From: Massalongia carnosa
Lineage: Eukaryota
Assembly: GCA_965645245.1 (NCBI GenBank)
Contig: OZ287076.1
Span: 372,001 to 436,000, forward strand
Length of the DNA stretch: 64,000 bases
Reading direction: 5' to 3'
Shown here: one piece after another, positions 8,899 through 39,169 of the stretch
Layout: every line of letters starts with the position of its first letter
Numbering within the stretch: the first letter of the stretch is position 1
Translations under genes and position numbers: made by a program
Notes under the pieces: generated by a model
Seen by the model: the letters and a program-made list of their open reading frames with translations, nothing else
What the model was told of the DNA's origin: nothing
Database searches by the model: none

Positions 8899-9118
8899 TA
8901 TTGAGCTTGATTTATTGATCTAAGCTCTTGGTGATTGGAGAATGATTTACGTTTTAGATAGACACTTGAAATTGACACTTGGAATTGAGGTGATGATTGC
9001 TTGCATTGAAAGGATTTTGCACCCATTCTCTCAGTTACTAGAATGTTGGGATTCGGTTAATAGATTACCGTATCCGAGCTACATATCGCTTACTGCTTGA
9101 CCACTAAACTGGCTGACA
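8899..9118 (-). repeat. 3' LTR of copia element
   Basis: 220 bp, minus strand TGTCAG...TCAATA, matches 13863-14082. Confidence 0.97.
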
Positions 9119-12100
9119 CATCCCCTTGATGAAGATTTTCTCCTTCAGTGGAATCTTCATCATTTCCTTTCTCATACCCTAGGCCTAATAGCCTGATGAA
9201 TTGCTTTTGACGTTGGGGGGGTAATGACTTTGTTAGTCCATCAGCTAGAATGTTATTTGTTGAAACCCATTCTATACCGATTTGCCCCCTAGATATTTCC
9301 TGGCGGAGCCAATGCTTGTGAATATCCACATGCCTAAGCTTGGTAATAAGGCGGTTAGTGGTTAGGGCTCGGATGGTTTGACGGTTATCGCATTGAATAC
9401 TAGTTGGATGATCGAGGTGGAAATTTATTGATTGAAAAAAGCGAGTTCACCATATCAATTCTTTCCCTGCGGCTGATATGGCTAGCAATTCGGCCTCGGT
9501 TGAGCTAGTTGTGACTGTGCGCTGCTTAGAGGCCTTCCAATCGATCATTCCATTGAATAGTTTGAATGCATAGCCTTGAGAGCTATATCTAGTGCTTGAA
9601 TCATCTGCGAAGGATGCATCGCTACTGGCCAAGAATATCTCTCGTGAATAAGTAGCCTGTGTGTTGAACACAATTGCTAGATGCTTAGTATGGGCTAGAT
9701 ATTTGAGGGTACGGTTGACGCATTCCATATGGTGTTTGGATGGGTTGGTAAGAAATTCCGATAATTTGGAAGCTGCTTGGGCCACATCGGGCCTAGTGAT
9801 GACTGCGGCAAAATTCAATGATCCTACCCGCTGTTGATAGGAGTGAATTTCTTGAGCTGTTGCCATAGAATTATTTTTGGTTAATTCTTCTAGTGGTAGT
9901 GGTGATTGTGTTGAACGCTTGGTGAGGTCCAAGTTGATGTTGAACTTGGCTATTAGCTTGTCAATGAATGAATCTTGGCAAAGCCATAGCTGACGAATAT
10001 TCCTATCCCTGATGATGTGAATTCCTAGAAACCATTCCAATTGACCTAAGTATCGCATTTCGTACCTCTGAAATAGTAGAGCTTGAAACTGATCCACTTG
10101 ATTGGTGTAGCGGCGATCATATAATATGACGATATCATCCACGAAGAAGAATAGCAAGATATGGGTATCTTGACTAATGAAAAGGCAGTCCACCCCCGGG
10201 ACGGGTTCAAGATTCATCTCGATTAGGACTTTTGATAGATTTTGATACCATAGGGCCGGTGATTGCTTGAGACCGTATAGTGCTCGCAATAGGAGTAGTA
10301 GAATATTGACTTTTTCTGATCCAGGCCACCCTTCGGGCAATTTACAATAGGTAGGTTCATCAATAGGACTATTTGCAAATGCATTGACTGCGTCGTATTG
10401 GCGTGTTTCAAGGTCAAATGCGGCTAGTATAGCCATTAGCGCTCTAAAATTCCGTGCGGCCAATGTAGCTGCAAAGGTATCTTGCTCGGTACGTTGAAGA
10501 TCACCCCTAGCACATAGTCTTGATTTGTATTTGACTAAATACCCCTTTTCATCGAGTTTGTACTTGAACACCCACATGGTTGGAATAGGTGTTTTCCCTG
10601 CTATTGTTGCTGCATTGATGTTGACCTCGGTCCAGGTGTTCTTTGCAACAAGCGCCTGAATTTCCATCTGCATGGCTAATTTGAAGCCCTCTGCATGCGG
10701 ATGCTTTAGCATTTGACGATAGTTCTCAGGTTCAATAGGTAAGCTATCTCTATGAAAGCGAGTGCTTTGAGTCGGGGTATAGTCCTTTTTAGGCTCTTGA
10801 TTGGAAATGTAGTAGGAACCTGCCATGATATTGGCCGAGAATGCAGCGTGATATGAATTCAACTCGCCATTCTTGGCTTGTGCTAAGGCGGTTGAATAGG
10901 CTTCATAGCGTCTATTGCGATTGCGACTTCTTCCCATCCCCTCAGGTAAGATATTATCCGTATCGAGACTTGAATTGATATCCCTTGATGCTTTTCTAGA
11001 ATTGTTACTCTTTGCGGTGATTGATTCTGATGGATTTGAACCATGAATTGATGGGTTTGGGCTTGATGAGCTGGTAATGGAGGGGCTCGGTGTTAATAGG
11101 TAAGTGTCGTCTGATGAAATTTCGGCAGCATTTCCGTATCCAGAATTTTTGTCCAGAATTATTTCCTCCATATTTTCTTCCATGCCTTGTATGTTTTCCC
11201 TCATGCCGATTCCACTTTCCTCCTCTTCATCATCCGATCCTATTTCGGTGATAAGGGTGATGGGATCCAGATCATGAAGCTCATAGGTAATTTCAAGCAT
11301 AGGTTCGTTGACAGCTTGTAGTAGGTCAATATCGTGTGCATCATAGTAGGTGTTCTCATTAAACATCACATCCCTCGTACGAATTACTTTTCTTTGACTT
11401 GGTATCCATACTCGAAAGATATTTCTGGCTTCATACCCTACTAGATGACCGATATGTGCTCGTTCTTGAAGTTTTTGCTTCTTTGGTATCTGCTTGTTTA
11501 GTGTGTACGCTTTGCATCCATAGTGGTGGAGATGGCTGAGATCGGGCGGGTTTCCTATGACTAGCTCATAAGGTGTTTTCCATTGGTGCTTCTTCATTGG
11601 TGTGCGATTAGCTATATATCCTGCGGTGCGCACGATCTCCGGCCATAGGAAAATTGGTAGTCCCGCGTCAATTCTCATTGCCCTTGCTTTCATGGCTAAA
11701 ATTCCCCCTTTTCTCTCAGAGTGGCCGTTTTGCTCCGGTGTGTCGGGTGTTGATGATTCATAGGTGATGCCCTTTTCAACAAGCAAGTCGTTGAAATTAT
11801 TGCCCAATGACCGTTCTCCATCTGACCGAATAAACACTACCTTAGCCTTGAAGCGAGTCTCAATAAGATTGATTGCCTCCTTGCATATTTTCGATGCATC
11901 CCCTTTGCGTGGGTGGGTAAATACCATATTGAAATCGGTCGCATGGCATGCAAAGTGTGAAACCCATTCATCTTTATTCATCGCGGTGTTGAGCTGCATT
12001 AAATCATAAGTGATGCGATAAAAGGGCTCATTTGATGTTTCTGCATTTTCTGATGAACGAGAAACAATGCGATGTGCTTTGGATAAAGCGCAAGGTTCGC

Positions 12101-13730
12101 ACTCGTTGGTTTTGGGGACTTTTCCTTCTGATTCTTCTGATATTTTGACTCCCCTAGTAGATGACTCGAGATGTTGAATAGATTCATCCGAGGCATGGGC
12201 TAGCATCTGATGCCATTCGTATGCTGTTGCGGTTTTATTGGTAGCTATCTTTGGTTTCTGTTGCACTAGGAAAACTGATGCTTGATCTGATGATGTGTTG
12301 TCCTCTAGCAAATAATGGCCGTTATAACGCTTTACATAAGCAACCGTTTTCCCTTCCCGATGGAGGTGATTCTTCCAATTATCAAAGTAAAGGCCTTTCA
12401 CATAGAGCAAGTCCTGAGAAACTAGGTTGGTCATGAAGTTGGATACATAGGCTACATTTAGAAGTGTGATGCTTTGAAGTCCGGTAGGAGTTGATACGGT
12501 GATTTTGACCGTACCATAGCTTTCTATTGCTAGGCGTTGGGTGCCCGCAGTTAGATACTCTCCCATTGATTTCCTTTCCTGTGTGTAGCGCGATTTCATG
12601 GTGTTGTTGCACACATGGATATTAGACCCGTTATCCAATATCCATGAGCTCTTGATTGTGTAGCTATCTGCCGAGAATGATGACGATGTTTTAGTAGATG
12701 TAAAAGCGCCTAACTCCTTCTCAGTATTGTTGGTGTTGGTGTTGGTGGTTTTAGTGGCTTTTGATTGTTGTATTTCCTTTGATCGCTGAAGGGATTTTTC
12801 CACCTTAGCTTTCAACTGCTGGTCTTTCATTGCTTCATCAATCTGTGTTTGAATTTGGGGTCTGGAAGTCCAATTTGAGGGCCGCTTCTCTGGTACTAGA
12901 TAGTAGCAGTCATTGTACCAATGAACGGACCCACAAAGACATTTGGGAGGCGTTTTTTGCCCATTAAATGTCGCTCCCTGTCCTTCCTTCTTTTTCTCGG
13001 TTGCAAAAGCTGAATGCGTGTTGTTATTCTTATTTTTTTGCGTTTGATGCAGGCGAACATATTTACGAAAGCTCTCAATTAGCGGGTGGAAATCTTTCTC
13101 TTCCTTGCTGTCCAAAGTAATCAGATGAGCGTTGGCAAATGAAGGTTCGGTGGGAAGAACGGCCATTATAAAATCACGAATAGGCCGTGTTCCCATCATT
13201 TCACCAACTCCATATGCCTTGCCATCGGTGTAGACTGTTTGCCATTCTTCTAACCACGTTTCTATATCCTGCTTGCCTGATCCCTTGCATAACCTGTGAT
13301 ATTTGTTCTCGATCTCTATGCAGCGTGCTGAGTCGCTCGGTGCTAAGCGGGTTTTCAGTGCTCGAAGCTGGTTCCATGGGTGAGGCTCTTCTTTCTGAAT
13401 GTAGGTGGCATTTTGGACTGTGATGGTATCTTGAATGAAGGTAATAAGGTCGGCAAATGCCTTTTGCTGCTTTTCGTACTTGGCCAGCTGAATTTTGTAG
13501 ATGTGGGTTTGTGCCTTGTATACTTCGTAGGCTCTTGGGTCAAAAGTTGCGGCGTCTGTTGATAAGATGAACACCGGTTCCGTTGGCGATTGGATGCTTA
13601 TTGGCTTGGTAATGATTTCTGGATTCACTAGGTCCCAAATTCCGCTGTTTGTGGCCCGTGATCGGACGAAGGAAAACCAGGTGTCCCAATCGGCTGGCTT
13701 GCCTAGGACTATCTTTCGCGTGGTACTCAT
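9090..13730 (-). CDS. Copia gag-pol polyprotein with one in-frame TGA in RNase H
   Basis: Protease WILDNGSNIH, integrase WHQMLAH..CEPC..RSDGE..NGHSER, RT FFVDD, RNase H SSDASFAD..SSTEAE. TGA at 9447-9449 (ELIW*TRFF) is followed in frame by CDNRQTI..KLRHVDIHKHWLRQE..ADGLTK, ending at 9090 inside the 3' LTR. Likely start MSTTRK at 13730. Confidence 0.93.
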
Positions 13731-13862
13731 GTTGATTTTTGATTTGATGACTTGATGGTTATTTGATGCAAGATGATGTAAACTTACAAGGTAAGATGCA
13801 AGTTGCAAAATGCAGGTTGGTACTTTCTTCTAAAACGATGGATGTGCTTCCGGGCTCATAAC

Positions 13863-14082
13863 TATTGAGCTTGATTTATTGATCTAAGCTCTTGGTGATT
13901 GGAGAATGATTTACGTTTTAGATAGACACTTGAAATTGACACTTGGAATTGAGGTGATGATTGCTTGCATTGAAAGGATTTTGCACCCATTCTCTCAGTT
14001 ACTAGAATGTTGGGATTCGGTTAATAGATTACCGTATCCGAGCTACATATCGCTTACTGCTTGACCACTAAACTGGCTGACA
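13863..14082 (-). repeat. 5' LTR of copia element
   Basis: Copy of 8899-9118; followed on the minus strand by the PBS. Confidence 0.97.
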
Positions 14083-14617
14083 CTTTGATTTCCCGGCTTA
14101 AGGGGGAAAATGCAATATTCTTTGCAAAGGCAGCTCCTACAACACGGCATTAGATGAATCGGCCATCATAGACTAGCCAGCAGATATGACAAATGTCGAC
14201 TGAAAAGACAAAGTGGCAGTATGTAATTGCACTCAATCTCTTGGCAACCGTGATTTTGCACCACTTGCTGCGTCGCGCTCGTCTTGTGGTTTTCGTTTTT
14301 GTTGACTGAACACGAAGATTTTTGCGAGCCATAAGTCTGACGAAGCTTTTTCAAATCAATCACTTTTTTTTTCGTTCTTTCAAGACGCTGTGGAGCGATA
14401 AACTAGGTGGTGTGCGTGGTCCACTACTGCTAGGAGTGCAGGAGAACAAACGAACAAGAGAAGAACAGGACAATAGAATAAGAACAATAGCTAGACTAGT
14501 CACTGTATGCCTCGTGCCTCGTGCCTCGTATCTCTGTATGTGAACTGTATGTGTTGATGCTGTGTGTTGTAGCTATGCTACGAGCATGCTTGCTCTGTGT
14601 ATCTAAGGAGAAGAACT

Positions 14618-14690
14618 GGCCTGCTGGGTCACAAACCTCTACGTGGTGCAGGCTATCAACACCTCCTCGGAGGTGGCCAATATCTGATCA
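14618..14690 (+). ncRNA. Predicted HDV-like (delta-like) self-cleaving ribozyme
   Basis: P1 GGCCUGC/GCAGGCU with G1-U wobble; P3 ACC/GGU with 7-nt L3 UCUACGU; P4 CACCUC-CUCG-GAGGUG; J4/2 GCCAA; imperfect P2 GGUCA/UGAUC. G+1 coincides with the TSD boundary. Confidence 0.72.
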
Positions 14691-14775
14691 TCGCCAACGC
14701 GGAAGTCCACCTCGGTGGCCATTTGAACGATCAACGTCTCTACTGATCATTCGTCACCTCGAAGGCACACATACA

Positions 14776-14918
14776 AAGCCCATTCATTCGGAATGGCCAC
14801 ACCCCTCAGGCGGAAGCCTTTCACCTCATCGAAAAATCCCATTATTCAGAATGGCCACACCCCTCAGGCGGAAGCCTTTCATCACATCGAAAAGCCCATT
14901 CATTTAGAATGGCCACAC
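14776..14918 (+). repeat. 58-bp tandem repeat, ~2.5 copies, inside the SINE-like element
   Basis: GAATGGCCACAC at 14791, 14849, 14907; units contain CCATT..AATGG and AGGC-GGAA-GCCT hairpins. Confidence 0.9.
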
Positions 14919-15499
14919 TTACACACCTTCATTTATACGACACCACGATCTGCCCTCGATCACGGCCAGTCTTTCCTCCATTGAATCAAAACGTTTAAAG
15001 AGAGAGAACGTTCGTCGAAAGTGAAATACACTGTCTAGTTCATCGAGTCTATAGGATTCCTAGCGCTTGAAGATCTGGGTGTATGCACCGCGTGGTAGAA
15101 GGACGGTCTCGTTGCGTTCAACATGGGACAAGGGAGTGGTTTTACCCTGGGGGCCAGGTTTCCACTTCCTGACTGTTGTTTATGTACATAAGCAGTCACA
15201 GCGTCATATCCTTAGGATGCATACGCTTAATGAATTAATAATAATAATAATAAAAAAGGAGAAGAACTGTCTATAACTAAAAGAAAAGACTGTCACCTCA
15301 CTTCATGAGACCTTTGCTAAAACTTAGCCGGAAAAACTAACTCCCGAATCGCTAGCAATTTAGATTTTGCATTGAAATTCGCATTTGCAGCGAAAATCGC
15401 TGCAAATGCAGTTGATTAACCTTACGAACGAGAATCTTTGCCTGCGGAGCAGTTCTCGATGCACATAGAAATGACATTTTTTAAGAATGTTAAAATTAT

Positions 15500-17042
15500 T
15501 TGATTTATGGACTTGATATTTTGACGCATCATGATGAGAAAATCGATGAAAACTCTATCGTGATCGAGGACGCGATGAACATTCAACTCGAAAACACGTT
15601 CGTGATCGCGCACGCGGAGCAGAGAGATCAACTGCTGTACAAGATAGATGACTATCTGATAGGTATAGGAGACGGAGGGGAACCGGAGGGAACAGGGATT
15701 CTAGAGGAGGTGAAAAATTTTCTCGATAATCAGAGAAGCATCGACAACAACGAAAACATACCGAAGCCCATTCACGACACCCTGACTGAAATACAAAGAA
15801 GTCTAGCCCGTATCGAAAGTGCTAAGACAGCCACAACAACCACAAACAGCTATTCCGCAGCCGCCACCAGAGGTCAAGCCTCCGAGGCCCCCCCGATTCC
15901 CCGCCGCACCAAGCCAATCACTTCTTCAAAATAAACCGAACCCTCACCACAAGAAGTTCGTCAGGCCAGAGCAATGACCGTAGTCATTTCCAGCGCAAGC
16001 GACAAGGAAAAAATAAAGAACATGCCCACAAAAGATCTCGTGGAGACACTACAAGCAGAAACGGAGGGGATTCGGGGAGTTTCGCGACTCATAAGCGGAG
16101 ACCTCAAAATTCACACGGAATCACTAGAAGTCAAAAAGACTACAAGAAAAGTCGGAATGGACCCGAAAAATAGCCGACTCAGCGGCGATTAAGACACGGA
16201 CATACTCGGTCAGAGTAAATGGTGTCAAGATGGAACACATCAAAACCGCCAACCAATCGCAGGCCATAGGGTACCTGCAGACTGCTAACGCACGCCTGCA
16301 CCCGGACCTGCAGATAAAGAAAATAGCCTGGTCCACCAGGGCTATAAGGGAAAAGAAGGCGTTCTCCACGCTACATATGGAAGTCGCCACCGCCGAAACG
16401 GCCAATCGGGTCATAGCCGAGGGTCTCATAATCGACTATGAAATCAAAGACTGTGAAAGATTCACAAAGGGATGCACCATGACGCAATGTTTTAATTGTC
16501 ACAAATATGGTCATATAGGTCGATCATGTCCCAACCCCACCGCCTGCGGTCACTGTGCTGGGGCTCACCCTAGCACCGAATGCAACATGGAAACAACAGG
16601 TAGATATCAAAGATGTGCTGCATGCAGTGAAAAGGGACACGAAGCCTGGTCAACATCCTGCGAAATCAGGAAAGTCGAAAAACGCAAAGCAGAGAGGGCC
16701 ATGCAAAAACGGGTCCCATTCTACCCAGTAGTCGCCCCCGTACCGGCCCCGTTCAGGTTCCAGAGCGAAAACATCAACCCGGTCCTTGGCAGCACAAACA
16801 GCAAAAAGAGGAAAACCATACCCCCCTCCGATAGCCCCGCGAATCCCCCACGAACGGGAACATCCTGGGCTGACACGGGCATCATGAATCCAGAAAACAT
16901 GACAAAGGCCCTTGCAAAACCAGTTGTAGGTAGACCCCCACTCAGACCCCGAGCTGTATCTACTGCCCCGGCGATAATCAGAGCAAACAACACCACCAAC
17001 GACCCCTCGACCTCCCAGGCCGAATCAATGGACGTCCTATGA
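15500..17042 (+). pseudogene. LINE ORF1 (gag-like, three zinc knuckles), disrupted
   Basis: CFNCHKYGHIGRSC, CGHCAGAHPSTEC, CAACSEKGHEAWSTSC; in-frame TAA at 15932-15934 and a frameshift in an A-run near 16135; true start uncertain. Confidence 0.88.
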
Positions 17043-20000
17043 GGGACACGAAATCTCTCTCCATATTGCAGTACAATGTCAGAAATGACAGAGTGAGTAA
17101 AATGTTACCCCTCTTAGCCGATCCGAACACTCAAGACTATGACATTATCGCAATTCAGGAACCCTGACGCAATCCATCTATTCCTACCACGTTAAGCTCT
17201 CATCAAAGTGGGTTTCATTTATTATATCGCCCAAATGGAGACACCAGAGTGTGTTTCTACATAAATGATACTATTGACCCTGATAGCTGGGAAGTAGAGT
17301 ATCCGTCGGCCGACATGTGCACCCTAAAAATTCGAATGAAAATTGGAAACACATCAGACGTGATCCACGTCCACAATGTGTATAATCCCTCTCCCATTTC
17401 CTATTCTTCTATAGACAGTCCGTCCACGCTAGCAACAGTGAAACGCCAATTAATTGCAGAGACAAAACACATTTTACTGGGCGACTTCAACCTACATCAT
17501 CCATTGTGGAATCATTCGTCGAGGCCTACTCAACATGCGGAGTCGGAACAATTACTGAACATAATTGAAGAGGCAAATCTATCACTAACACTTCCAAAAG
17601 GCACCATTACATGGGAGGCTAGACAATCGTCTAGCACAATCGATCTTGTATTCATGTCAGAAGAATTAATGGATAGACTAGAACATTGCATGTCAAGACC
17701 GGAACTCAATCAGTCGTCCGATCACATTCCGATCTCCACCCGAATTGCGCTGAACAGTGAGGTTCAAACAATCAGAGAACGCAGGGCCTGGAAACTGACG
17801 AACATGAGAAAACTGAGAGAAGCGGAAAAGAGGGCGCCCCCCCCGAAGACCCCCCGATCCCCCGCCGAAATCGATGCTTACACCGTGTCAATTCAAAAAT
17901 TTCTTCAAGAAGTGATAGAAACCTCTGTACCTTGGGCTAGACCCAGTAAGTACGCCAAACCCTTTTGGAATGATGAATGCAGTGTGATCACGAAAGAAAC
18001 TCGTAGGCTCAGACGTGTCTGGTCCAATTCCAGAGACATTTCTGATTGGATAACATACACAAAATCCAATCACAGAAAACAAAAAAATCATTCAAAAGGC
18101 TAAAAGACTGTCGTTCCGCAAGGAAATAGAAAAAGCCACCGAATCGCCTACTGGTCTCTGGCGACTAGCCAAATGGGCGAAAGACAAAAGTGACCAGACA
18201 AGAGAAATTCCCAAAATGCCCAATCTCGTTCGAGACGACCAAGTAGCAGAGACGTTCGAGGAGAAATCGGACATGCTAAAACAGAAATTCTTTCCACCCG
18301 CCCCTCCGGCCGACCTCAGCGACATAGAGGGTTCATTTTACCCCAGCCCGCCACAATGTCCAATGATCATAACCAAACTAGAGGTGATGGAAGCCATACG
18401 CCGACTCAAGCCCGATACGGCCCCGGGTCCGGACGGAATAGCCAACAGAATTGTAAAGGCATGCTCGGAAAAGCTAGTCGAATTACTCACCCCACTGTTT
18501 CAAGCATGTGTAGAACAAGTATATCATCCTCGTGCATTCAAAACCGCCAACACAATCACACTCAAGAAAACAGGCAAGGATGACTATTCGGCCCCGAACG
18601 CCTATCGACCCATAGCACTCCTAAACACGCTTGGAAAAGTAATGGAATCCATCATGTCACAAAAAATAACCCATCTAGCGGAAACCCACCGACTCCTGCC
18701 CGACACCCAGATGGGCGCCAGACGAGGAAGATCAACCGAATCTGCACTAGAATTGTTGACTGAACAAATTTATACAGTGTGGGGCCAAGGCACAGACAAA
18801 GTAGCCACATTATTGAGCATGGACGTAGCAGGAGCCTATGACACAGTGACACATCGAAGACTGATTCACAATCTTCGCAAAAGGAAAATCCCAAAATGGA
18901 TCACTGACTGGGTGAACAGTTTTCTGAATGAAAGAAGCACTACCCTGGCGATTCACAGCCGAGTCACGGGCATATTCGATGTAAAAACCGGAATCCCACA
19001 AGGCTCCCCCATTTCTCCTATTCTTTATCTGTTCTACAATGCAGACCTACTAGACATATGTGAAAGACCAGGCAGCAACACGAGTGCTCTAGGCTTCGTA
19101 GATGACATCAATGTGCTAGCATACGGAAAAAGCACCGAAGAAAATTGTAAGACGCTAGAGGTAATTCACAAAAAATGTGAAAAATGGGCAAGTCGACATG
19201 GTTCAGTTTTCGCTCCGAAGAAATACGAATTGATACATCTGTCAAGAAATCTGAAGAAATTCAACATGTTCACTGTTATTCAAATAGGAAATAACATCAT
19301 AAAACCAAAGACAGACATCAGAATTCTAGGACTTCAAATCGATTCAAAATTGAAATGGGGTGCTCACACAAGGAAAATCCAGGAAAAAATGACAAAACAA
19401 TCCAGGGCATTGACAAAAATATCCACCTCCACATGGGGCGCCACTCTTCTAAAGGCACGCCAGGTTTACACCGCCGTAGTCCGGCCGGCCATGACGTACG
19501 GCTCCACCATTTGGCACATGCCAAAAGAAATTCAAAAATCAAACGTCATCTCAAACAAACTGGCTGTCATACAAAACAAATGTCTAAGAAACATAGCCGG
19601 AGCCTTCAAAGCAACGCCCATAGCTGTACTTGAAGCAGAGACATTTATAGCCTCAATTGACATACATTTAGATCAACTACAGGCCCAGACCAGACAACGC
19701 CTGTGTCGAAATGGTCAAAAGAGTTTCATCACAAATGCATGCAACAAAATAGCCAATAAACTTCGAGGTCGGGCAGGACGCAAGAGGGCCCCAGTCATCA
19801 CTCCAGGAACGCTGAAATACGCCTGGGCCAAGAGAATCACATCGGAGGCACATAACCCTCCAACACCGACACCAAATCCACCATGGGCCGAATCCCCCCC
19901 GAATCTCGCCCGAGAAATAGGGGAGGCACGCGCCGCTCATAACAAAATAACTGCTCAAATAAAAAAACTACACACATTTGCATGGCAGGCCTCGTGGAGA

Positions 20001-20740
20001 TCATATCAGGAACACACACCCGTTCCCACCCCGGCACAATCAGGTTCACTCTCCAAAAAACGCATCTAATTCCACGAAACTCTAGCCAAAGCGGAGAGCG
20101 CGCTAGCCATTCAGATACTGAAGAAGGGTAGTCGTGCGTGCTAATGGAAGGTGGTGGTACGTGATGATAGATGGCGAACTAAGCAGTGAACACACACACA
20201 CACACAAACGACCGAATGGACCTACGACTGCATAGACATGAAAAGAACTCGACGACTGAACGACTGAACGACTAGTTGATGCAACGAAATGAACGTGTGT
20301 CGATGACTACGTGACACGACGATGATGATGACAGCGTAGGTGATAGAAGATGATGTCCGGAGATGATGAAGAAAACGCCAGCAAAAAACCCGTTTTATCC
20401 CCACACAGGCTTGCCATGTCACCTGACCATAGATGACACATGTCGCCCCACCACAATACGCTCAGAAAAGATAGGCCTAGCCGCCTTCCTACATAGACAC
20501 CGAGTCCCAGACGTCTCGTCCCCGAACTGCTCATGTGGCTGGCACAAACAGACTGCAAAACATGTGATCATGTTTTGCAAACTCAACGACAACAGAAAAA
20601 CTCTGCTAAATACGATAGGCACAAACAACTATCGATTAATCACTGAGTCATCTAAAGCAATGAAATTAGTCACAAAGTGGCTAATGAAGACAGGTTTGTT
20701 GTCACAATTTTCGCTGACAGCACAGCATCTATACTGCTAA
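17039..20740 (+). pseudogene. LINE ORF2 (APE endonuclease, reverse transcriptase, C-terminal CCHC), disrupted
   Basis: ILQYNV..IAIQEP*, LGDFNLHHPLW, TIDL, SDHIPI; RT YRPIALLNTLGK, GIPQGSPISP, FVDD; CSCGWHKQTAKHVIMFC. Lesions: TGA 17165-17167, frameshift in A-run ~18081-18087, TAA 20067-20069, solo LTR at 20119. Confidence 0.92.
20119..20455. mobile_element. Solo LTR (337 bp) inserted in LINE ORF2
   Basis: TG...CA termini, 4-bp TSD ATAC (20115-20118, 20456-20459); removing it restores ORF2 frame ALAIQI-R-SEKIGLAAFL. Confidence 0.9.
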
Positions 20741-23700
20741 CAGTAGGCATGCTTTGTTTCATTTTTCATACTTGTCTTAGGTCAAAGGTTTTTTCATGGA
20801 GCACACGGCTGGGACCCGGAGGATCCTCGGCCGGACACAGGATTGCATGGTTTTTCTTCCTCAAAAGGTTTTCCATGTACTATAAAACTAGATAGACTCG
20901 CCCGCATGGGCCGGCCTTCGGCCGGTACCACATCGGAATAAGAATCATCATCATCATCATCATGAGAAAATCGATAAAGCTCGAAAAAATTTGTTTGTCT
21001 GGTAAATCGCGACGCAACGCGAAAAGTGATAAATCTGTACATCAGTCTTCGGTTTGCTCAGATTAGTTCGATTTCCATGTACATGTCTCAGGGCGAATAG
21101 GTGGCAAATGGGGTAAGAATAGCTGCCTGCGGCGGCATGAGAGCTCGAGTGTTGGAAGGCACTCATTCTGTTCCAAGAATTCCTTTAATTCTTTGTTCCT
21201 TAGAGCTTTCCTCTCGAAATGAATCGGTATTTTCTCGACTGGTCTTAAGAACATGGGATAGGATCCAAAAAATAGACACCCGAAGGATCCCCGATTGCAT
21301 CACGGAGCGGTTCATGGGAAGAACACGATCATGCTGCTAGAGTCTGTCCGAAAAAAACTTCTTGATCAGTTGGAGGTCTTGTGACTCGATATTTCAGTAG
21401 CTCCAATTTTCAAGAGGCTTATATGTTGTGCTTAGATTTCTCCCGGATCCTCTCTATGACGGAAGCCACCGGCGTAGCATTTTGAGTGGCAGGCGGGAAT
21501 TCCATCTTTGTGGTAACTAAGTGCGCAACGATTTTGCATCCACTGAACGTCTGCGTTCTTGCGGGCAGGAAATCGGCCAGGTGGATGGTCTGCTCACACC
21601 TGAAAATATCGCACAAAGCAACAGTTGCTCCCATTTCTTCGTTACATCTGCCCCTACCAGGGCATACTTTCAGCTCGTCGGACTTATGATTTAAATTTCG
21701 GGGGAGTAAGAGATGAATATATGAAACATGCTCACCGTAGCCAGCGTTTTCGCGTCCATATACTCTGGATGTTTAGATTCGGGATTGCTCAGGGCGAAGC
21801 AAGGAGACTACAAGTACGAGAGAAGCTCTTTAGGTATATGTGTTCCCATCTTCCGCCAACTCCCCGATTCATGATCTGGAGTTGTTGCGTAGTCCACCTG
21901 TGTCTCAGTCCTCGATTATATACGGTTGTCTGCACTGATTTGATCATTACACAAATCCGACTCAATATCTGATGATATTCCGATTTCGTGAACTTCGTAC
22001 CTGATTTAGTTTTTTAGATCTTACGCTTTCTATTTTGCTGATGGCGATTGTCTACTCTACTCCAAGAATCCTATTGCTGTTTCACCATCGGGATCTCAGC
22101 ATTGGATGTAAGAGGTTCCGTTGAAGCCAAATTATCACCAACGAGAAGAAGCCAGACCTAGAAAGGGCCACCCTAGCCTCAATTTAATCTATCAAATCAG
22201 CAATGTCCTCGTCGAAGATCTATTTACCATTCTTCCTTTCAAGTGGTTGAAATCCTTTGAGCAACGGAGACAGCACACCAAAGGCAGATCGTGCTCAGGA
22301 CGTAGCCGCTGGGAATAGTCTTGGCCATCAAGCCAAAACAAAATCTAGCTCGCGAAGTTCTGGATCGAGAACTGTCTTGTCTCCAGGATTTCCTCAGGAA
22401 TCTTCTCCCTGGGTGTATATGCCCTTCGTGCTATCGTCAGAAGGACTCTAATATAAAATATAACGATTGATCAATGAGGGATGAGCGATGATGATGATAA
22501 TCGTCGCTATAATATTCATCTTGCAGATTCCCGCAGCATTTTTTTCAGCATCGGCGGTAAAGAGGAAAGGGAAATACAATTGATCTCAGCCGTAAGCCCA
22601 GCCCGTAGGCTCGAGTCCACCACTCAAAGGCCCTTTTGCTAGACGAAAACATGGCTTTCCGGTCTTTTAAGGACGGCTTTTTCTAGCCTCAGAACCTTTC
22701 ATCGAGTGAAACATCTTGGGGGCGTGTCTCCAAAAAAAAAAAAAACTTTGCACGAGGGAGATTATACAACTGCTGTAGTATATATACCTATGTATCCTAG
22801 AATTTTCAGGAACAATCCCCTCGGATCTCTGTCGCGCGTGGTACGTCTTACACCTCTCCACACCTATCGATGCGAGGGGCAAGCTTGATTCATCCCTCCA
22901 TGTATGAAGTTTGACTGCAATCGGGTCCGTCTGGTCCCGGCGGATAGCTTTAAGCCTGATTGCGCAGAAAATTATATTTAGTTTCAAGACGGCCCAGACC
23001 AATTGATCTATTTCCCATTTTTATCTTCTTGCATCATGGCAGCCTCCAATCGCTCGGCCAGTCTTCCCATATCATATATTCCACGTTAGTGAAGACGCGT
23101 GGGGTAGGGGCGATGTCAATGATTTGCTAAGCCAGTTTCCACGCCGTAGCGTTTAGAGCTATTTTTGATATCTTCGATGGCTACTAGGTGGGCCATTGTG
23201 GAAGTTCCAAAAAGATATGAATCACAAATTCGGGGACAAAATATCTCTTCTGCATCATATTATTAGCACATTCTGATCTAAAGGCGATTACTAGCTAAAT
23301 CTAGCATGCCTCGTCGTTTTATGTAAAGTTGATGGATTTCCAAGGTTTAAACGGCAGCTAAAAAGCAATCTATGATATCGACTTCTGGGTTTCTCTTTGA
23401 GGAATGCCCCGGTGTGTTTATGCTTCCAAGGTCTGTCTGCCTCGTTTTGGAAGCAGCTTCAACATGAGGTGTTGTTTGATTCGCTGATTGGCTATATTTT
23501 GTTATACAGGGCGGCGGAGCACCGCCTGAAGAATATATCTTGTATATGCGACCTTTCTATAGAGAATGAAAAGTAAGAGAAAATATAGGCGATATGTAAC
23601 CTTGAAGTATTTATAGAGAAAGACCACGTTCCTCTTCAAGGATAAAGTAAGAGCAGAGTTGATATCTTGAAAATCCGGCGTCTAGACGTGCAAAAATACC

Positions 23701-35057: not shown

Positions 35058-35362
35058 TTAAACTATTCACTAAACTAGCTTAGCTTTAGACTAATAATAT
35101 ACTAATCTAAATAGGTTTAGCTGTGGCGAGGGCAAGGCAGGTCTGAGGTACTAAGGCAATACGAGGGGTCCTCAGGGTCCATCTCGGCTAGAGGGAGTGT
35201 AGGTACCTTGTACAGAGTACTCCGTACTGTACTTTGCTTTTCCTTAGGCCATCGGGTGCGGCGGGTCTGAAACATTAGATGAGGCTTTCCATGCCGGTTA
35301 CAGGGGAAGTATAACACGATTGATGACTTATAGATGGTTATTTTTTCAGCAGCGTGGGGTTA

Positions 35363-38300
35363 CTCGTATTCACCCCCATTTGCAACACACCCCCATTTGC
35401 AACACGCTAGTTAGTAAGCACCCGCATTAAAGTCCGCTAACTCCGGTATATCAAATTTTTTTCATTTCTCCCTCTTCTATCTGCATTGTCAACTTGTCAT
35501 GGAATTACCTCGCACCCTCCCACGTTTCCTGATCGGGTTAGTATTTAACAGGCTCTCTTGCCGTGAAACCTGCCCTGCATGTTGAATAGAACCGTGGCTC
35601 GTTATTCCGAACTATCCTGAAAACCTCACCCCATGTGTTCAGACCTTCTTCCGCTGCCTTCAGTGCACTCCCAAACTCCTACATCCCGAATCCAATCTCA
35701 ACGTCTCCACTATCCAAGTCTACGACTGGGATTGCCCAGCAGAGAGAGATTGCTTCGGCATGGAGAAAGGCGGAACAGGTCAAAGCGATCATGGTTAGGA
35801 AATTAGAACGAACAGAGATGAGGGCAAGTCAAGAATAGGGGAGTTGGAAGCCATGGCTATAAAACCTATGTGGTTTCTCAGGTGTTTGGAGCTCTTCGTC
35901 GGACGTCTTGTATACTATCCCTAGACCTAGCTTTCTAATAGTAACTCTTGCATATCTCCCTATCTGCACCTTGTCCGTGACACAACTCAATTAATTCATT
36001 ATGAACTCAGCAGACGAACTGCCCAAAGAGGAGCGCATTCAGCTTGCTATTGCTGCTTATAGAGAGTCATTTAATGACTGGGAAGCCGGTCCCAAAGCTT
36101 TCGAAGACAAGCCATCCGTTCGAAAAATCGCCCGTAAGCATGGTATCATTCATTCCACCCTTACTAGACGACTTGCAGAAACGAAAACTCATAAAGAAGC
36201 TGCTCTATTGCAGCAGCGATTACTTCCGGAGGAGGAATCCGCTCTCGTGGACTGGACAATACAAATGGAGGCATGGGGCTGGCCTCCTCGTGTAACACAA
36301 CTTCGCTTTATGGCGTTAGAAATGCTGATAAAGCGAGACGATCGCAACGATTTGGGTATCAATTGGGTGAGCAAATTTTTATCCCGTCATAAAGAGTTGG
36401 ATACTGTGTTTTGTCAGGCATTGGACAAGGAAAGAGCTTTAATGCATAATGCGGAAATGCTCAATCAATGGTTTCAGCTGTACGCAAAGAATTTTAATCA
36501 ATACAAATTCAATGAGGAGGACTGCTACAATATGGATGAAAAAGGATTTGCTATGGGACTAGTGGGCAAGCTCAGAGTAATTTGCTCTAAGCATGATCGA
36601 CCAGCATTATTGACTCAATGCGGTAATAGAGAATGGGTTTCTCTGATCGAATGTGTATCTGCTGATGGAGCGGTTCTTAAACCATGGGTTATTTTCAAAG
36701 GTAAACAACAGCAAAAGGCCTGGCGTTCATTTATCAAAGAAGGTGGTCACATTGCTCTGAGTGAGAATGGATGGACAAACAATGAAATCGGTCTGGATTG
36801 GTTAAAGCAGTGTTTTGAACCGGAAACACGAAGCCGTTTAAAAGGTCGCTATCGTCTTCTTATTCTCGATGGACATGCTTCTCATCTTACTTCAGAAGCG
36901 ATTCAGTTTTGTAAGGAAAAAGACATCATTCTTTTATGTCTTCCTTCTCATTCAACGGACATGCTTCAGCCTTTAGACGTTGGTGTTTTTCATCCATTGT
37001 CTACAGCCTATCGGGTGGAACTGGAGAAGTATACTAGACTAGGAGTTGGTTATTCAATTGATAAAGCAGACTTTCTGCTTCTTTATCAAAAGGCTCGAAA
37101 CAGAGCTTTATCCACTCAAAATATTCAGCATGCCTGGTCCAAAAGTGGGTTGTTTCCATTCAATCCTGCTATAGTTCTTCAAAAACTTCCTAGTCCACCT
37201 CATCCTTCTACGCCTCCGAAAATGACAGTCACGAGTTCAAATGATGTCTCTGTTTCAGTGGCATTTACTCCAGCAAATGCTGATCAAGTCAATACTTTGA
37301 TGGAGCAATTGACTGACAATGACTCAAATCAATTGATTCTCGACAAGCTTGGAAAGGCCTGCAAATCCGCGTTGGCAAGCAGTCATCTTCTCAGGATTAC
37401 AAACGAAGAACTTCTTGTAGCTGCTCGTCGTAAACACGAAAGAGCAAATCGAGCGAAGGGACATTATGGTACTGCTAGAATCATGAATTCGGAGGTTCTC
37501 GAGGAACGAGAGCAAAAGCTAGCTAGCAAAGAAAAGGAAAAGATTGATAAACAAATGACCAAAGAGTTCAATCTTTTGGTGAAATCTTTCAACAAACTCA
37601 GTCCCGATTTATTCATGGAGTCAAAACAACGCAGTCCCATCAAGAAAGCTCTTCAAAGGCCTCCGATGCTTCCTCCGCCTTCGGGTTCAATCATACTTCT
37701 CTCGCCCAGTCCTATCAAGAAGCGATCAAGAGGAAATTCATTGCCAAAAAAGACTTTCATGATTGGGCCGGAGGCGAATAGAATGAAAGAAATGCGCATC
37801 AGTCGAAGTGGTAGGACAATAAAGCCGTCGCAAAGGCTTGATTAAAGAACTAGAAACTCGCCTCGTACGCATGATCCTCCTCCTCCTAGCCAATAAAAAG
37901 TCTCTGTACGTATAAATAGTCCTTTCACAAGTTCATTTGCCCTGAGTTTATCTGTCAAATGATGTTGATGGGACTTCAGGACCTATCCTAAAAATTCCCT
38001 CCGATCCAACACAAGCAACGCCTTCTTGATCAACAGTATCGCTTTTTCGAAGCTCAAACTGGAAGACCTCGTTGATTAGAGGACATCGATTGGTCAAGGG
38101 AAAGTTATTAGGACAGTCTGCTGCTGTCAGACAGCTGGAAAGTGGGAGTGAAAAGATGAGGTTTAAACGTACATACAAAGCTCAATTCCAGTTCTTTTGA
38201 TGCAGCCATTGGGTTATATTTAAGGTCAATAAATGTTCAGATTATTCCGAACCGACTTCATCAGTTGGCTTGCAATTACTAGCAATTTTGGTGGCATGCG

Positions 38301-38395
38301 AAGCTGAAAGGTAAAGGTTTTTCGGATTTTGGTGGGGTGCTTACTAACTAGCGTGTTGCAAATGGGGGTGTGTTGCAAATGGGGGTGAATACGAG
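35363..38395 (+). mobile_element. Fot1/pogo-type Tc1/mariner DNA transposon, intact
   Basis: 61-bp TIRs (35363-35423, 38335-38395), each with two CACCCCCATTTGCAACA direct repeats; TA TSD at 35361-35362 and 38396-38397. Confidence 0.96.
36001..37845 (+). CDS. Fot1/pogo transposase (HTH, CENP-B-like HTH, DDE_1), 614 aa
   Basis: YNMDEKGF, RLLILDGHASH, LPSHSTDMLQPLDVGVF; uninterrupted ORF. Confidence 0.96.
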   Translation: MNSADELPKEERIQLAIAAYRESFNDWEAGPKAFEDKPSVRKIARKHGIIHSTLTRRLAETKTHKEAALLQQRLLPEEESALVDWTIQMEAWGWPPRVTQLRFMALEMLIKRDDRNDLGINWVSKFLSRHKELDTVFCQALDKERALMHNAEMLNQWFQLYAKNFNQYKFNEEDCYNMDEKGFAMGLVGKLRVICSKHDRPALLTQCGNREWVSLIECVSADGAVLKPWVIFKGKQQQKAWRSFIKEGGHIALSENGWTNNEIGLDWLKQCFEPETRSRLKGRYRLLILDGHASHLTSEAIQFCKEKDIILLCLPSHSTDMLQPLDVGVFHPLSTAYRVELEKYTRLGVGYSIDKADFLLLYQKARNRALSTQNIQHAWSKSGLFPFNPAIVLQKLPSPPHPSTPPKMTVTSSNDVSVSVAFTPANADQVNTLMEQLTDNDSNQLILDKLGKACKSALASSHLLRITNEELLVAARRKHERANRAKGHYGTARIMNSEVLEEREQKLASKEKEKIDKQMTKEFNLLVKSFNKLSPDLFMESKQRSPIKKALQRPPMLPPPSGSIILLSPSPIKKRSRGNSLPKKTFMIGPEANRMKEMRISRSGRTIKPSQRLD

Positions 38396-39169
38396 TATCA
38401 GAAACGTCATCAGCAACAATGTTGGTTCATGGTTCAACGGACTTTGCTGCAACACCCCAACGCTCCAATGCTGACGTGTACGTGTACTTGTACTCTGTAC
38501 AGAGTACGTGGTAACTGATCAGATAGAAAGCAAAAGGTGAGCATAACGCATGACAGAAGCCAATTTCGTCTCCCTGCTGACTTCTCTAGTCGATCCCTGT
38601 ACTATGTACTATTAGTCAATCGCGCCTATCGTCGTCGATGCGGACACACTGGATCCTGGATCCTAGACAGCACCCGTTACATTTTTCTGTTGGAGCTGCC
38701 GTCTACCATCGTATCCCGGAAATAAATCAACAGGAAGAGAGAAGCCTCTCCAGGGAAACATGCTGTGTATTGAGTTGCGTCCCCAGTGCAACCCACTGCA
38801 ATCAAGTTTGCCAACTTTGAACCGGTTCATACTCAAACATGTTGCGGCGCTAGCATCGACCAGCCTTCTCACAGGCGGTCTCCAATACATGTCACATAGG
38901 TACGGGAGAAAAGCACGTGTTCTAGCATAGTTTTCTGTGTTTTACATACATTCTAAAACCGAAAATCATCCAAACAAAACGACCTCGGTGATGGAGTTGA
39001 GACGGTCTACTTATAAGATGAATCTTTGGGAAACGTATTTGTCGAGCAACTCCGAGACAATCATCCACCTAAGACAACCCTGCCTGTGACAAACTCGCCA
39101 AACCATGAGAGACGTTGCCCTTGGCCATTTACTCCAAAGCACATGAGCAGCTCCGATTAGATTTAGAAT

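What the first reader, a model, noticed from the sequence alone, without database searches (positions are those of the whole stretch)
14605..15269. Ribozyme-headed 638-bp non-coding retroelement (fungal SIDE-like element)
Seen: a unit bounded by a 13-14-bp TSD and a (TAA)6 tail. Its first base is G+1 of an HDV/CPEB3-like fold: 7-bp P1 with G-U at the cleavage site, P3 with 7-nt loop UCUACGU, tetraloop-capped P4, J4/2 GCCAA. P2 has two mismatches and P1.1 would be a single U-A pair. Established: HDV-like ribozymes process the 5' ends of R2 and other LINEs, and R2 gives rise to short internally deleted elements. Inference: a promoter-independent non-autonomous element that cuts itself out of read-through transcripts and borrows a LINE RT. 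Its tail differs from the neighbouring LINE, so the partner is elsewhere.
Basis: partly seen in the sequence, partly recalled or inferred. Interest (0 to 1): 0.8.

Follow-up and report, generated by a model that had tools for sequence, protein, structure and literature searches.

The report
Ribozyme-headed short retroelement in a fungus
A 638-base non-coding jumping element, present in many copies in lichen-associated fungi, begins exactly at the cut site of a hepatitis-delta-type self-cutting RNA fold; this design is known from insects and trypanosomes, and I found no report of it in fungi.

Summary
An exact 14-bp direct repeat (14605-14618 / 15256-15269) brackets a 638-bp unit (14618-15255) that ends in (TAA)6.

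**Ribozyme fold.** The best Rfam match in the whole window is a full-length HDV-like ribozyme at 14618-14689: RF02682, 33.6 bits, below its gathering score of 44. A covariance model built from 14 independent, strongly covarying metagenomic HDV-like ribozymes scores 14618-14690 at 49.1 bits. That is the only hit in the window.

**Family evidence.** Contigs of four public runs were laid on the stretch.
- The unit belongs to a high-copy family.
- Its homology starts exactly at G14618 in all four runs, with differing upstream flanks.
- Depth falls sharply after about 15250.
- One contig shows the empty target site.

**Content.** The unit has no ORF longer than 63 aa and no tRNA or other Pol III-type head.

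**Best reading.** This is a non-autonomous non-LTR retroelement. Its RNA 5' end is made by self-cleavage, and an unidentified LINE with a (TAA)n tail copies it in trans.

**Not shown.** Cleavage activity, expression, the partner LINE, and origin by internal deletion (the "SIDE" label).

It is a new member of a known kind, apparently unreported in fungi. Interest is moderate.

The parts
14605..14617 (+). Left copy of the target-site duplication. It is 13 bp for certain. G14618 could be its 14th base or the element's first base.
   Evidence: Exact repeat of 15256-15269. The empty site in the X10 contig carries a single copy.
14618..15255 (+). The whole 638-bp non-autonomous non-LTR retroelement.
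   Evidence: TSD and tail. High-copy family with its 5' border at 14618 and a depth drop after about 15250. No internal ORF over 63 aa.
14618..14690 (+). HDV-like ribozyme fold, with predicted cleavage 5' of G14618. P1 14618-14624/14648-14654; P2 14627-14633/14683-14689; P3 14635-14637/14645-14647; L3 14638-14644; J1/4 14655-14659; P4 14660-14665/14670-14675; J4/2 14676-14682.
   Evidence: RF02682 33.6 bits and RF00094 27.2 bits, both full length. Model R1 49.1 bits. Structural alignment A3.
14677..14677 (+). Predicted catalytic cytosine, the equivalent of HDV C75.
   Evidence: It aligns with the conserved C of GGCUAA in both the Rfam alignments and R1. The role is inferred from the family.
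14707..14721 (+). Second CUCG-capped hairpin followed by GCCA. It looks like a partial duplicate of P4 plus J4/2. Its role is unknown.
   Evidence: Read from the sequence. Not followed up.
14775..14948 (+). Three tandem 58-nt units (100%, 86% and 60% identity to the first). Their number varies among family copies.
   Evidence: the repeat finder family D2. Contig joints skip 106-122 nt here (table 5).
15100..15235 (+). Structured 3' region, including a terminal hairpin at 15200-15227 just before the tail. It is a candidate recognition site for the partner reverse transcriptase.
   Evidence: MFE -44.2 kcal/mol, z = -2.79, and 0 of 200 shuffles fold as well. The function is inferred.
15236..15255 (+). 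(TAA)6 followed by AA: the 3' tail.
15256..15269 (+). Right copy of the target-site duplication.

Best explanation
The unit 14618-15255 is one young copy of a high-copy, non-coding, non-LTR retroelement family found in lichen-associated fungi. Its first 73 nt fold as an HDV-like self-cleaving ribozyme.

**Proposed cycle.**
1. A copy is transcribed as part of a longer transcript from any upstream promoter (inferred).
2. The ribozyme cuts 5' of G14618 and so creates the element's exact RNA 5' end. This is inferred from the fold and from the shared 5' border of the copies.
3. The structured 3' region plus the (TAA)n tail is recognised in trans by the reverse transcriptase and endonuclease of an autonomous LINE with the same tail. 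That LINE is not in this window (inferred).
4. Target-primed reverse transcription to the very end of the cleaved RNA gives full-length copies that begin with G+1 and are flanked by 13-14-bp target-site duplications. The outcome is shown; the mechanism is inferred.
For: **Ribozyme fold.**
- The best Rfam hit of the whole window is full-length RF02682 at 14618-14689: 33.6 bits, E = 0.019 over the window and 6e-5 locally. RF00094 scores 27.2 bits.
- A metagenome scan with the L3/J1/4 core returned 57 loci.
- 14 distinct ribozymes from those loci show 95.3% paired cells. 18 of 23 pairs have changes on both sides. The covariation score is 0.796, against 0.233 in shuffles (0 of 500 reach it) and at most 0.212 when the partners are slid.
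- Model R1, built from these 14, hits the window only at 14618-14690: 49.1 bits, E = 4.6e-9.
- I then gave R1 46 of the 57 loci. A ribozyme family that was not used for training scores 45-60 bits. Of the 16 loci that carry the search pattern by chance in coding DNA, only one scores, at 28.5 bits. About 20 bits therefore come from P1, P4 and J4/2 and not from the pattern.
- P2 pairs at 6 of 7 positions in the register that covaries in the references.

**Retroelement.**
- Exact 14-bp TSD and a (TAA)6 tail.
- Contigs of four runs were laid on the stretch: 2067 from X1, 134 from X4, 5 from X9 and 2 from X10.
- Matches start exactly at 14618 in all four runs. In X1, 13 contigs carry loose upstream ends with only 0.4 agreement, which means different flanks. 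X4 record 10, X9 record 16 and X10 record 8 also start there.
- X1 depth falls from 73,830 (15214-15250) to 3,869 (15251-15287). X4 depth falls from 56.7 to 8.17.
- An 8,942-nt X10 contig runs along the left flank to 14596. It then continues with one TSD-like copy and directly the right flank (TCTATAACTAAA...). This is an empty site.
- No ORF over 63 aa lies inside the element. ARAGORN finds no tRNA. Rfam gives no tRNA, 5S or 7SL match at E up to 10.
- None of the 40 best-supported variant sites falls in 14618-14700. 24 fall in 14701-15127 (table 3).
Against: - Both Rfam hits are below their gathering scores: 33.6 against 44, and 27.2 against 50.
- P1.1 can form only one U-A pair, and P2 has a C-C mismatch.
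- The minimum-free-energy fold is not significantly more stable than shuffles: z = -1.56, and 14 of 200 shuffles fold as well.
- R1 was trained on sequences picked with 19 nt copied from this very ribozyme, so part of its score is circular.
- I could not see the sequences of other copies. No covariation within this family is shown, and 49 variant rows were not displayed.
- No partner LINE was found.
- Cleavage and expression are untested.
Confidence: 0.75

Rival explanations
1. The element is a genuine non-autonomous retroelement, but the HDV-like fold is inactive or vestigial. The shared 5' end would then be a transcription start from an internal promoter. This is the situation in L1Tc/NARTc, where the first 77 nt are both a promoter and a ribozyme.
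For: Sub-threshold Rfam scores. A single-pair P1.1 and a mismatch in P2. According to the abstract listing of PMC3383444, Pr77 of L1Tc/NARTc is an internal promoter that coincides with the ribozyme.
Against: The family border coincides to the base with the fold's +1 in four runs. The same J1/4 (AUCAAC) occurs in 14 natural ribozymes with strong covariation. There is no tRNA, 5S or 7SL head. There is no box-B-like site on the + strand of the element; that motif was recalled from memory.
Confidence: 0.12
2. The ribozyme is active, but its main value to the element is not release from read-through transcripts. Instead the folded 5' end would serve as a structure that protects the uncapped RNA, binds the LINE protein, or marks the template end for the reverse transcriptase.
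For: The review PMC6765202 reports proposals that HDV-like ribozymes of R2 and L1Tc have roles beyond cleavage, such as IRES-like activity (passages read). A second P4-like hairpin follows the ribozyme at 14707-14721.
Against: There is no ORF to translate. Nothing here distinguishes these roles from simple 5' processing.
Confidence: 0.08
3. The fold is a chance resemblance. The unit would be an ordinary SINE or a one-off internally deleted LINE fragment.
For: Short pseudoknot descriptors can fit by chance.
Against: E = 4.6e-9 with R1, and the sole hit in 64 kb. It is also the top Rfam hit of the window. All four helices, the G-U closing pair and the J4/2 C lie in the canonical register. The family is high-copy with varied flanks, so it is not a one-off.
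Confidence: 0.03

Closest known systems
R2 SIDEs and R2/R1 hybrid SIDEs of Drosophila (Eickbush and Eickbush 2012, PMC3414825; abstract read)
   Same: Short non-coding non-LTR elements with an HDV-like ribozyme at the 5' end and a LINE-type 3' end, mobilised in trans. The hybrid SIDEs have 14-bp target-site duplications.
   Different: SIDEs insert site-specifically in rDNA and are rare. Both of their ends are traceable to known R2 or R1 parents. This family is dispersed and high-copy, lives in fungi, has a (TAA)n tail and internal 58-nt repeats, and has no identified parent.
L1Tc/NARTc and related Pr77-bearing elements of trypanosomatids (PMC3185411, PMC3383444, PMC4035085; abstract listings only)
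   Same: An autonomous LINE and abundant non-autonomous derivatives share an HDV-like ribozyme in their first ~77 nt, which releases the RNA from co-transcripts.
   Different: In those elements the same 77 nt also act as an internal promoter. The host is a protist with polycistronic transcription. No sequence relation to them was tested here.
Minimal bacterial and phage HDV-like ribozymes (Rfam RF02682 drz-Fpra type; theta ribozymes, Kienbeck et al. 2024, PMC10879173, passages read)
   Same: These are the best Rfam match. The L3 (UCUACGU), the J1/4 (AUCAAC) and the GGCYAA J4/2 are shared with 31 metagenomic matches in 30 loci, five of which abut tRNA genes.
   Different: Those sit next to tRNAs or between prokaryote-style genes, not at the head of a retroelement. 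The likeness may reflect a constrained core and not common descent.
Fungal 'HDV ribozyme variants' (Li and Breaker 2017, PMC5640933; passages and one supplementary table read)
   Same: Self-cleaving HDV-class ribozymes in ascomycetes. Both have one extra nucleotide between P2 and P3 (here A14634).
   Different: That class has a C-G pair at the cleavage site and a loop E in P4. This one has G-U and a plain 6-bp P4 with a tetraloop. The paper's main text never uses words beginning 'transpos' or 'retrotranspos' (0 occurrences).
Fungal SINE/LINE pairs and I-type LINEs with microsatellite tails (Mg-SINE/MGL of Magnaporthe; the TAA-tailed Drosophila I factor). Recalled from memory, not from any call.
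   Same: A short non-coding element that ends in a triplet-repeat tail and presumably shares its 3' end with a LINE.
   Different: As I recall, classical fungal SINEs have a tRNA-like Pol III head. This element has a ribozyme head and no Pol III features.

Membership tests
HDV-like self-cleaving ribozymes | Nested double pseudoknot with P1, P2, P3 and P4 in the canonical order and spacing. | tested here: met
   Full-length alignments to RF02682 and RF00094 and to R1. P1 has 7 of 7 pairs, P3 3 of 3, P4 6 of 6, and P2 6 of 7 in the covarying register.
HDV-like self-cleaving ribozymes | Purine-pyrimidine pair (typically G-U) at the base of P1, next to the cleavage site. | tested here: met
   G14618 pairs with U14654.
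HDV-like self-cleaving ribozymes | Catalytic cytosine in J4/2 (the C75 equivalent). | tested here: met
   C14677 aligns with the conserved C of GGCUAA. Its catalytic role is inferred.
HDV-like self-cleaving ribozymes | P1.1 mini-helix between L3 and J1/4, two pairs in HDV itself. This detail is recalled from memory. | tested here: inconclusive
   Only one U-A pair is possible. The same J1/4 (AUCAAC) is present in 14 natural ribozymes with strong covariation, but these were selected for that motif.
HDV-like self-cleaving ribozymes | Score at or above Rfam's curated gathering score. | tested here: not met
   33.6 against 44 for RF02682, and 27.2 against 50 for RF00094.
HDV-like self-cleaving ribozymes | Site-specific self-cleavage that leaves a 5'-OH on +1. 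| not testable with these tools
   No RNA holder was listed. A bench assay is needed.
HDV-like self-cleaving ribozymes | Compensatory changes among homologues of this particular ribozyme. | tested here: inconclusive
   The sequences of other copies could not be read. One search lists no well-supported variant in 14618-14700, but 49 rows were not shown.
Non-autonomous non-LTR retroelement (SINE in the broad sense) | Target-site duplication and a simple-repeat or A-rich 3' tail. | tested here: met
   A 13-14-bp exact TSD and (TAA)6.
Non-autonomous non-LTR retroelement (SINE in the broad sense) | Many copies with the same ends in different flanks, and an empty site. | tested here: met
   13 X1 contigs have unlike sequence before 14618. 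Homology starts at 14618 in four runs. Depth drops after about 15250. The X10 contig shows the empty site.
Non-autonomous non-LTR retroelement (SINE in the broad sense) | No coding capacity for its own reverse transcriptase. | tested here: met
   The longest internal ORF is 63 aa.
Non-autonomous non-LTR retroelement (SINE in the broad sense) | 3' end shared with an autonomous partner LINE. | not testable with these tools
   No genome is held. The only LINE in the window shares nothing with the element and has a (TCA)n tail.
SIDE (short internally deleted element) | Both ends derived from a full-length LINE by internal deletion. | not testable with these tools
   The parent LINE is unknown. The genome-contig scans found 0 matches.
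Classical Pol III SINE | A tRNA-, 5S- or 7SL-derived head with an internal Pol III promoter. | tested here: not met
   No such Rfam match at E up to 10. ARAGORN finds nothing. There is no + strand box-B-like site in the element; the motif was recalled from memory.
Fungal HDV ribozyme variants (Li and Breaker 2017) | A C-G pair at the cleavage site and a loop E replacing part of P4. | tested here: not met
   This ribozyme has G-U at the site and an uninterrupted 6-bp P4. The criteria come from passages of PMC5640933.
Theta ribozymes | The cleavage site abuts a tRNA gene. | tested here: not met
   No tRNA lies in 14400-15500.

The most novel reading that the evidence does not exclude
This would be a promoter-less, self-cleaving 'ribozyme SINE' that has recently swept to high copy number through several differently labelled lichen-associated fungi, possibly by horizontal transfer inside lichen consortia. 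In two of the runs its first 115-172 nt differ from this copy by a single base, while the adjacent repeat differs by about 8%. Its ribozyme module belongs to the minimal bacterial and phage subclass (drz-Fpra and theta type) and not to the R2/CPEB3 type, so it may have been captured from a prokaryotic or phage source.
Probability: 0.12. Interest if true: 0.75.

Novelty: new member of a known kind. Interest (0 to 1): 0.5.

Why it matters
Ribozyme-headed LINEs and their short parasites are documented in metazoans and trypanosomatids (review PMC6765202, passages read). Fungal HDV-class ribozymes are known, but they were reported with 'widely variable gene associations' and without any mention of transposons (PMC5640933).

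A high-copy fungal family whose copies all begin at the ribozyme's +1 would give at least some fungal HDV-like ribozymes a clear job. It would extend the 'cleave yourself out of any transcript' strategy to a third eukaryotic group.

It would also offer a compact, natural 5'-end-defining module with a matching 3' recognition end, for studying trans-mobilisation by fungal LINEs. For genome annotators it marks a repeat class in lichen-fungal genomes that lacks the tRNA, 5S or 7SL head by which classical SINEs are recognised.

Tried and rejected
**Searches that gave nothing.**
- Own-genome search: no genome is held.
- A second copy in the window: none.
- Earlier findings by sequence and by place: nothing.
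- Two scans of genome contigs, with a 21-mer from the ribozyme and a 24-mer from the element body: 0 matches each.
- The metagenome scan returned 57 loci, but none belongs to this element's family.

**Expression.** No RNA holder was listed, so expression and in vivo 5' ends could not be examined.

**Readings I rejected.**
- The neighbouring LINE (15549-20962) as partner: it has no shared sequence and a different tail.
- The A-run-preceded metagenomic ribozyme family (L010-L012, L016 and others) as a retroelement: in the two loci checked (L028, L041) every ORF of 120 aa or more lies on the opposite strand, which looks like a prokaryotic or phage context.

**Weak or unhelpful results.**
- The MFE fold of the ribozyme reproduces P1 and P4 but is not significantly stable, z = -1.56.
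- My MAFFT alignment A1 put one family out of register and was dropped in favour of A2 and A3.
- One literature search was badly framed and returned only lichen papers.

**Sources I could not read.**
- Ruminski 2011, Webb 2009 and Webb and Luptak 2011 are not held. The '11 canonical fungal examples' cited by Li and Breaker could therefore not be checked for a transposon context.
- The Stockholm alignments of Li and Breaker are not among the held supplements.

**Not in print, as far as searched.** Full-text searches found no paper on a fungal retroelement with an HDV-like ribozyme, judged from titles and abstracts: 7 papers, 13, 15 listed of 221, 5 and 1.

Full report
**What is in the sequence**

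The 14-mer AAGGAGAAGAACTG occurs exactly at 14605-14618 and again at 15256-15269. Between the two copies lies a 638-bp unit (14618-15255) that ends in (TAA)6 plus AA at 15236-15255. Runs of four or more TAA units occur nowhere else in the 64 kb; 0 of 100 shuffles give 3 matches.

The unit contains no internal ATG-started ORF longer than 63 aa. It has three tandem 58-nt units at 14775-14948.

Its 3' terminal 156 nt fold better than all 200 shuffles, with z = -2.79. The fold includes a hairpin at 15200-15227 directly before the tail.

**The ribozyme fold**

No Rfam family reaches its gathering score in the window. At relaxed thresholds the best match in the whole window, out of 4227 families on both strands, is RF02682 (the HDV ribozyme of F. 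prausnitzii).
- It covers 14618-14689 and model positions 1-74 of 74.
- It scores 33.6 bits against a gathering score of 44. E is 0.019 for the window and 6e-5 for a 201-nt search.
- RF00094 (HDV ribozyme) follows at 27.2 bits against 50.

The helices, read from these alignments and from the sequence, are:
- **P1:** 14618-14624 with 14648-14654, 7 bp, with G14618-U14654 at the predicted cleavage site.
- **P3:** 14635-14637 with 14645-14647, closing the loop UCUACGU.
- **J1/4:** AUCAA, followed by C14660, which opens P4.
- **P4:** 14660-14665 with 14670-14675, capped by CUCG.
- **J4/2:** G14676 C14677 C14678 A A. C14677 sits at the place of the catalytic cytosine.

A plain MFE fold recovers P1 and P4, but it is not unusually stable (z = -1.56). 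That is uninformative for a pseudoknot.

**An independent yardstick**

I scanned the metagenome collection for the L3/P3 core and J1/4, leaving the seven P1 bases free. This gave 57 loci, none of them from this element's family.

Inspection split the loci into two groups:
- clear ribozyme shapes;
- chance matches inside coding DNA.

Fourteen distinct ribozymes that aligned without a register shift (A2) give strong support for the nested double pseudoknot:
- 95.3% of cells are paired.
- 18 of 23 pairs have changes on both sides, including all 7 pairs of P2.
- The covariation score is 0.796, against 0.233 in shuffles (0 of 500 reach it) and at most 0.212 when partners are slid.

The J1/4 variant AUCAAC allows only a one-pair P1.1. 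These results show that the variant is used by natural, evolutionarily maintained ribozymes.

A covariance model built from these 14 (R1) finds exactly one match in the window: 14618-14690, 49.1 bits, E = 4.6e-9.

The training set was fished with 19 nt of this ribozyme, so I checked how much that alone contributes. I gave R1 46 of the 57 loci. The 11 left out were near-duplicates of non-ribozyme hits, plus L035, which overlaps L034. The result was:
- Of the 16 chance-match loci, only L038 scored, at 28.5 bits.
- A ribozyme family not used in training scored 45.2-60 bits.
- The window's 49.1 bits therefore includes roughly 20 bits from P1, P4, J4/2 and their spacing.

In the model-guided alignment A3 the window's P2 falls in the covarying register and pairs at 6 of 7 positions: G27-C89, G28-U88, U29-A87, C30-G86, A31-U85, a C32/C84 mismatch, and A33-U83 (window positions 146xx). 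On A3 as a whole, 91.3% of cells pair.

**A mobile, multi-copy family that starts at the ribozyme's +1**

No genome is held for this window, so I used public runs. Twenty runs from 13 studies hold part of the unit.
- Eight runs hold half or more of its sampled words.
- These eight come from five coded organisms and one lichen metagenome.
- The best holder may be the window's own sample.

I laid the contigs of X1, X4, X9 and X10 on 14400-15500.

- **Number of contigs.** 2067 from X1, 134 from X4, 5 from X9 and 2 from X10 were laid. The stretch also includes an unrelated repeat at 14400-14600.
- **5' border.** It is at 14618 to the base.
  - X1 has 13 contigs whose upstream parts (median 255 nt) agree only 0.4 with each other, which means different flanks.
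  - X4 record 10, X9 record 16 and X10 record 8 all begin at 14618.
  - X9 has yet another upstream sequence.
- **3' border.** Summed depth falls from 73,830 to 3,869 in X1, and from 56.7 to 8.17 in X4, between bins 15214-15250 and 15251-15287.
- **Empty site.** An 8,942-nt X10 contig follows the left flank to 14596. It then reads ATAAGGAAAAGAACTATCTATAACTAAACT: one diverged copy of the duplicated target, followed directly by the right flank (window 15270 onward, TCTATAACTAAA).
- **Conservation.** None of the 40 best-supported variant sites lies in 14618-14700, while 24 lie in 14701-15127. 49 rows were not shown, and some diverged contigs that start at 14618 carry about 14% differences.
- **Internal variation.** The middle of the element varies by deletions around the 58-nt repeats (table 5).

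The tool warns that summed depths are not copy numbers. I conclude only that there are many copies.

**What it is not**

- **Not a Pol III SINE.** There is no tRNA, 5S or 7SL match at E up to 10. ARAGORN finds nothing. There is no + strand box-B-like site; that motif was recalled from memory.
- **Not related to the adjacent LINE.**
  - That LINE spans about 15549-20962 and has Exo_endo_phos_2 and RVT_1 domains.
  - Its TSD is GAGAAAATCGAT and its tail is (TCA)n.
  - It shares no sequence with the element.
- **Not the published fungal HDV variant class.** That class has a C-G pair at the cleavage site and a loop E in P4 (PMC5640933, passages).
- **Not a theta ribozyme.** No tRNA lies next to it.

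**Mechanism**

Shown:
- the anatomy;
- insertion with a TSD;
- many copies that share the first base;
- an HDV-class fold whose +1 is that same base.

Inferred:
- read-through transcription;
- self-cleavage 5' of G14618, which gives the template its end;
- recognition of the structured 3' end and (TAA)n tail by a LINE reverse transcriptase;
- target-primed reverse transcription to the end of the cleaved RNA.

The main rival is that the fold is inactive and the common 5' end is a transcription start. Only a bench test can exclude it. I put it at about 0.12.

**Comparison and novelty**

The design matches two known cases:
- R2 SIDEs of Drosophila (abstract of PMC3414825);
- L1Tc/NARTc of trypanosomes (abstract listings).

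A review states that LINEs and SINEs with HDV-like ribozymes are known in diverse metazoans (PMC6765202, passages).

For fungi, my searches found no such report. Li and Breaker 2017 do not mention transposons. Three key papers were not readable.

I therefore rate this as a new member of a known kind, well supported and of moderate interest.

A bolder reading remains open but unsupported: recent horizontal spread among lichen fungi, with a ribozyme module of the bacterial and phage minimal subclass.

Noticed in passing
window 8899-14083: A copia-type LTR retrotransposon on the minus strand. It has two 221-nt LTRs that are 100% identical and an uninterrupted 1427-aa polyprotein (RVT_2, SH3_retrovirus, Pol_BBD, gag_pre-integrs). 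It looks very young.
   Followed up: partly
window 15549-20962: An APE-type LINE on the + strand with Exo_endo_phos_2 and RVT_1 domains, split into three ORFs. It has a (TCA)n tail and a GAGAAAATCGAT target duplication at 15537-15548 and about 20964-20975. It seems 5'-truncated, and 20080-20390 looks like foreign or diverged sequence inside it.
   Followed up: partly
window 35361-38397: A pogo/Tc5-type DNA transposon with perfect 63-nt terminal inverted repeats and a 614-aa DDE_1 plus HTH_Tnp_Tc5 transposase ORF.
   Followed up: partly
window 14400-14600: The DNA just left of the insertion is itself a high-copy repeat in runs X1 and X4, and its end lies near 14570-14600. The element therefore landed at or beside the end of another repeat (tables 2 and 7).
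   Followed up: no
window 15191-15206: Nine X1 contigs continue after about 15204 with a run of A instead of the last ~30 nt plus (TAA)n. Most contigs also carry an extra AAT after 15190. This suggests a subfamily with a different 3' end or tail (tables 4 and 7).
   Followed up: no
window 14707-14721: A second CUCG-capped hairpin followed by GCCA lies just downstream of the ribozyme. It resembles a partial duplicate of P4 plus J4/2.
   Followed up: no
L002 6482-6562; L014 3196-3271; L034 5345-5420 and 8053-8128; L042 561-634; L056 2961-3036: Metagenomic HDV-like ribozymes with the same core start at or within a base of the 3' end of a tRNA gene, inside dense tRNA arrays. This is the theta-ribozyme arrangement. 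L056 also holds a CTA-anticodon tRNA, which ARAGORN labels tRNA-Pyl.
   Followed up: partly
L010-L012, L016, L020, L027-L029, L031, L033, L037, L041, L048, L051, L057: A soil and sediment family of HDV-like ribozymes (P1 CCUGAAC type). In the rows printed most follow a T-run or short spacer and then an A-run. In L028 and L041, the two loci checked, all ORFs of 120 aa or more lie on the opposite strand. The context is unknown but is probably prokaryotic or phage.
   Followed up: partly
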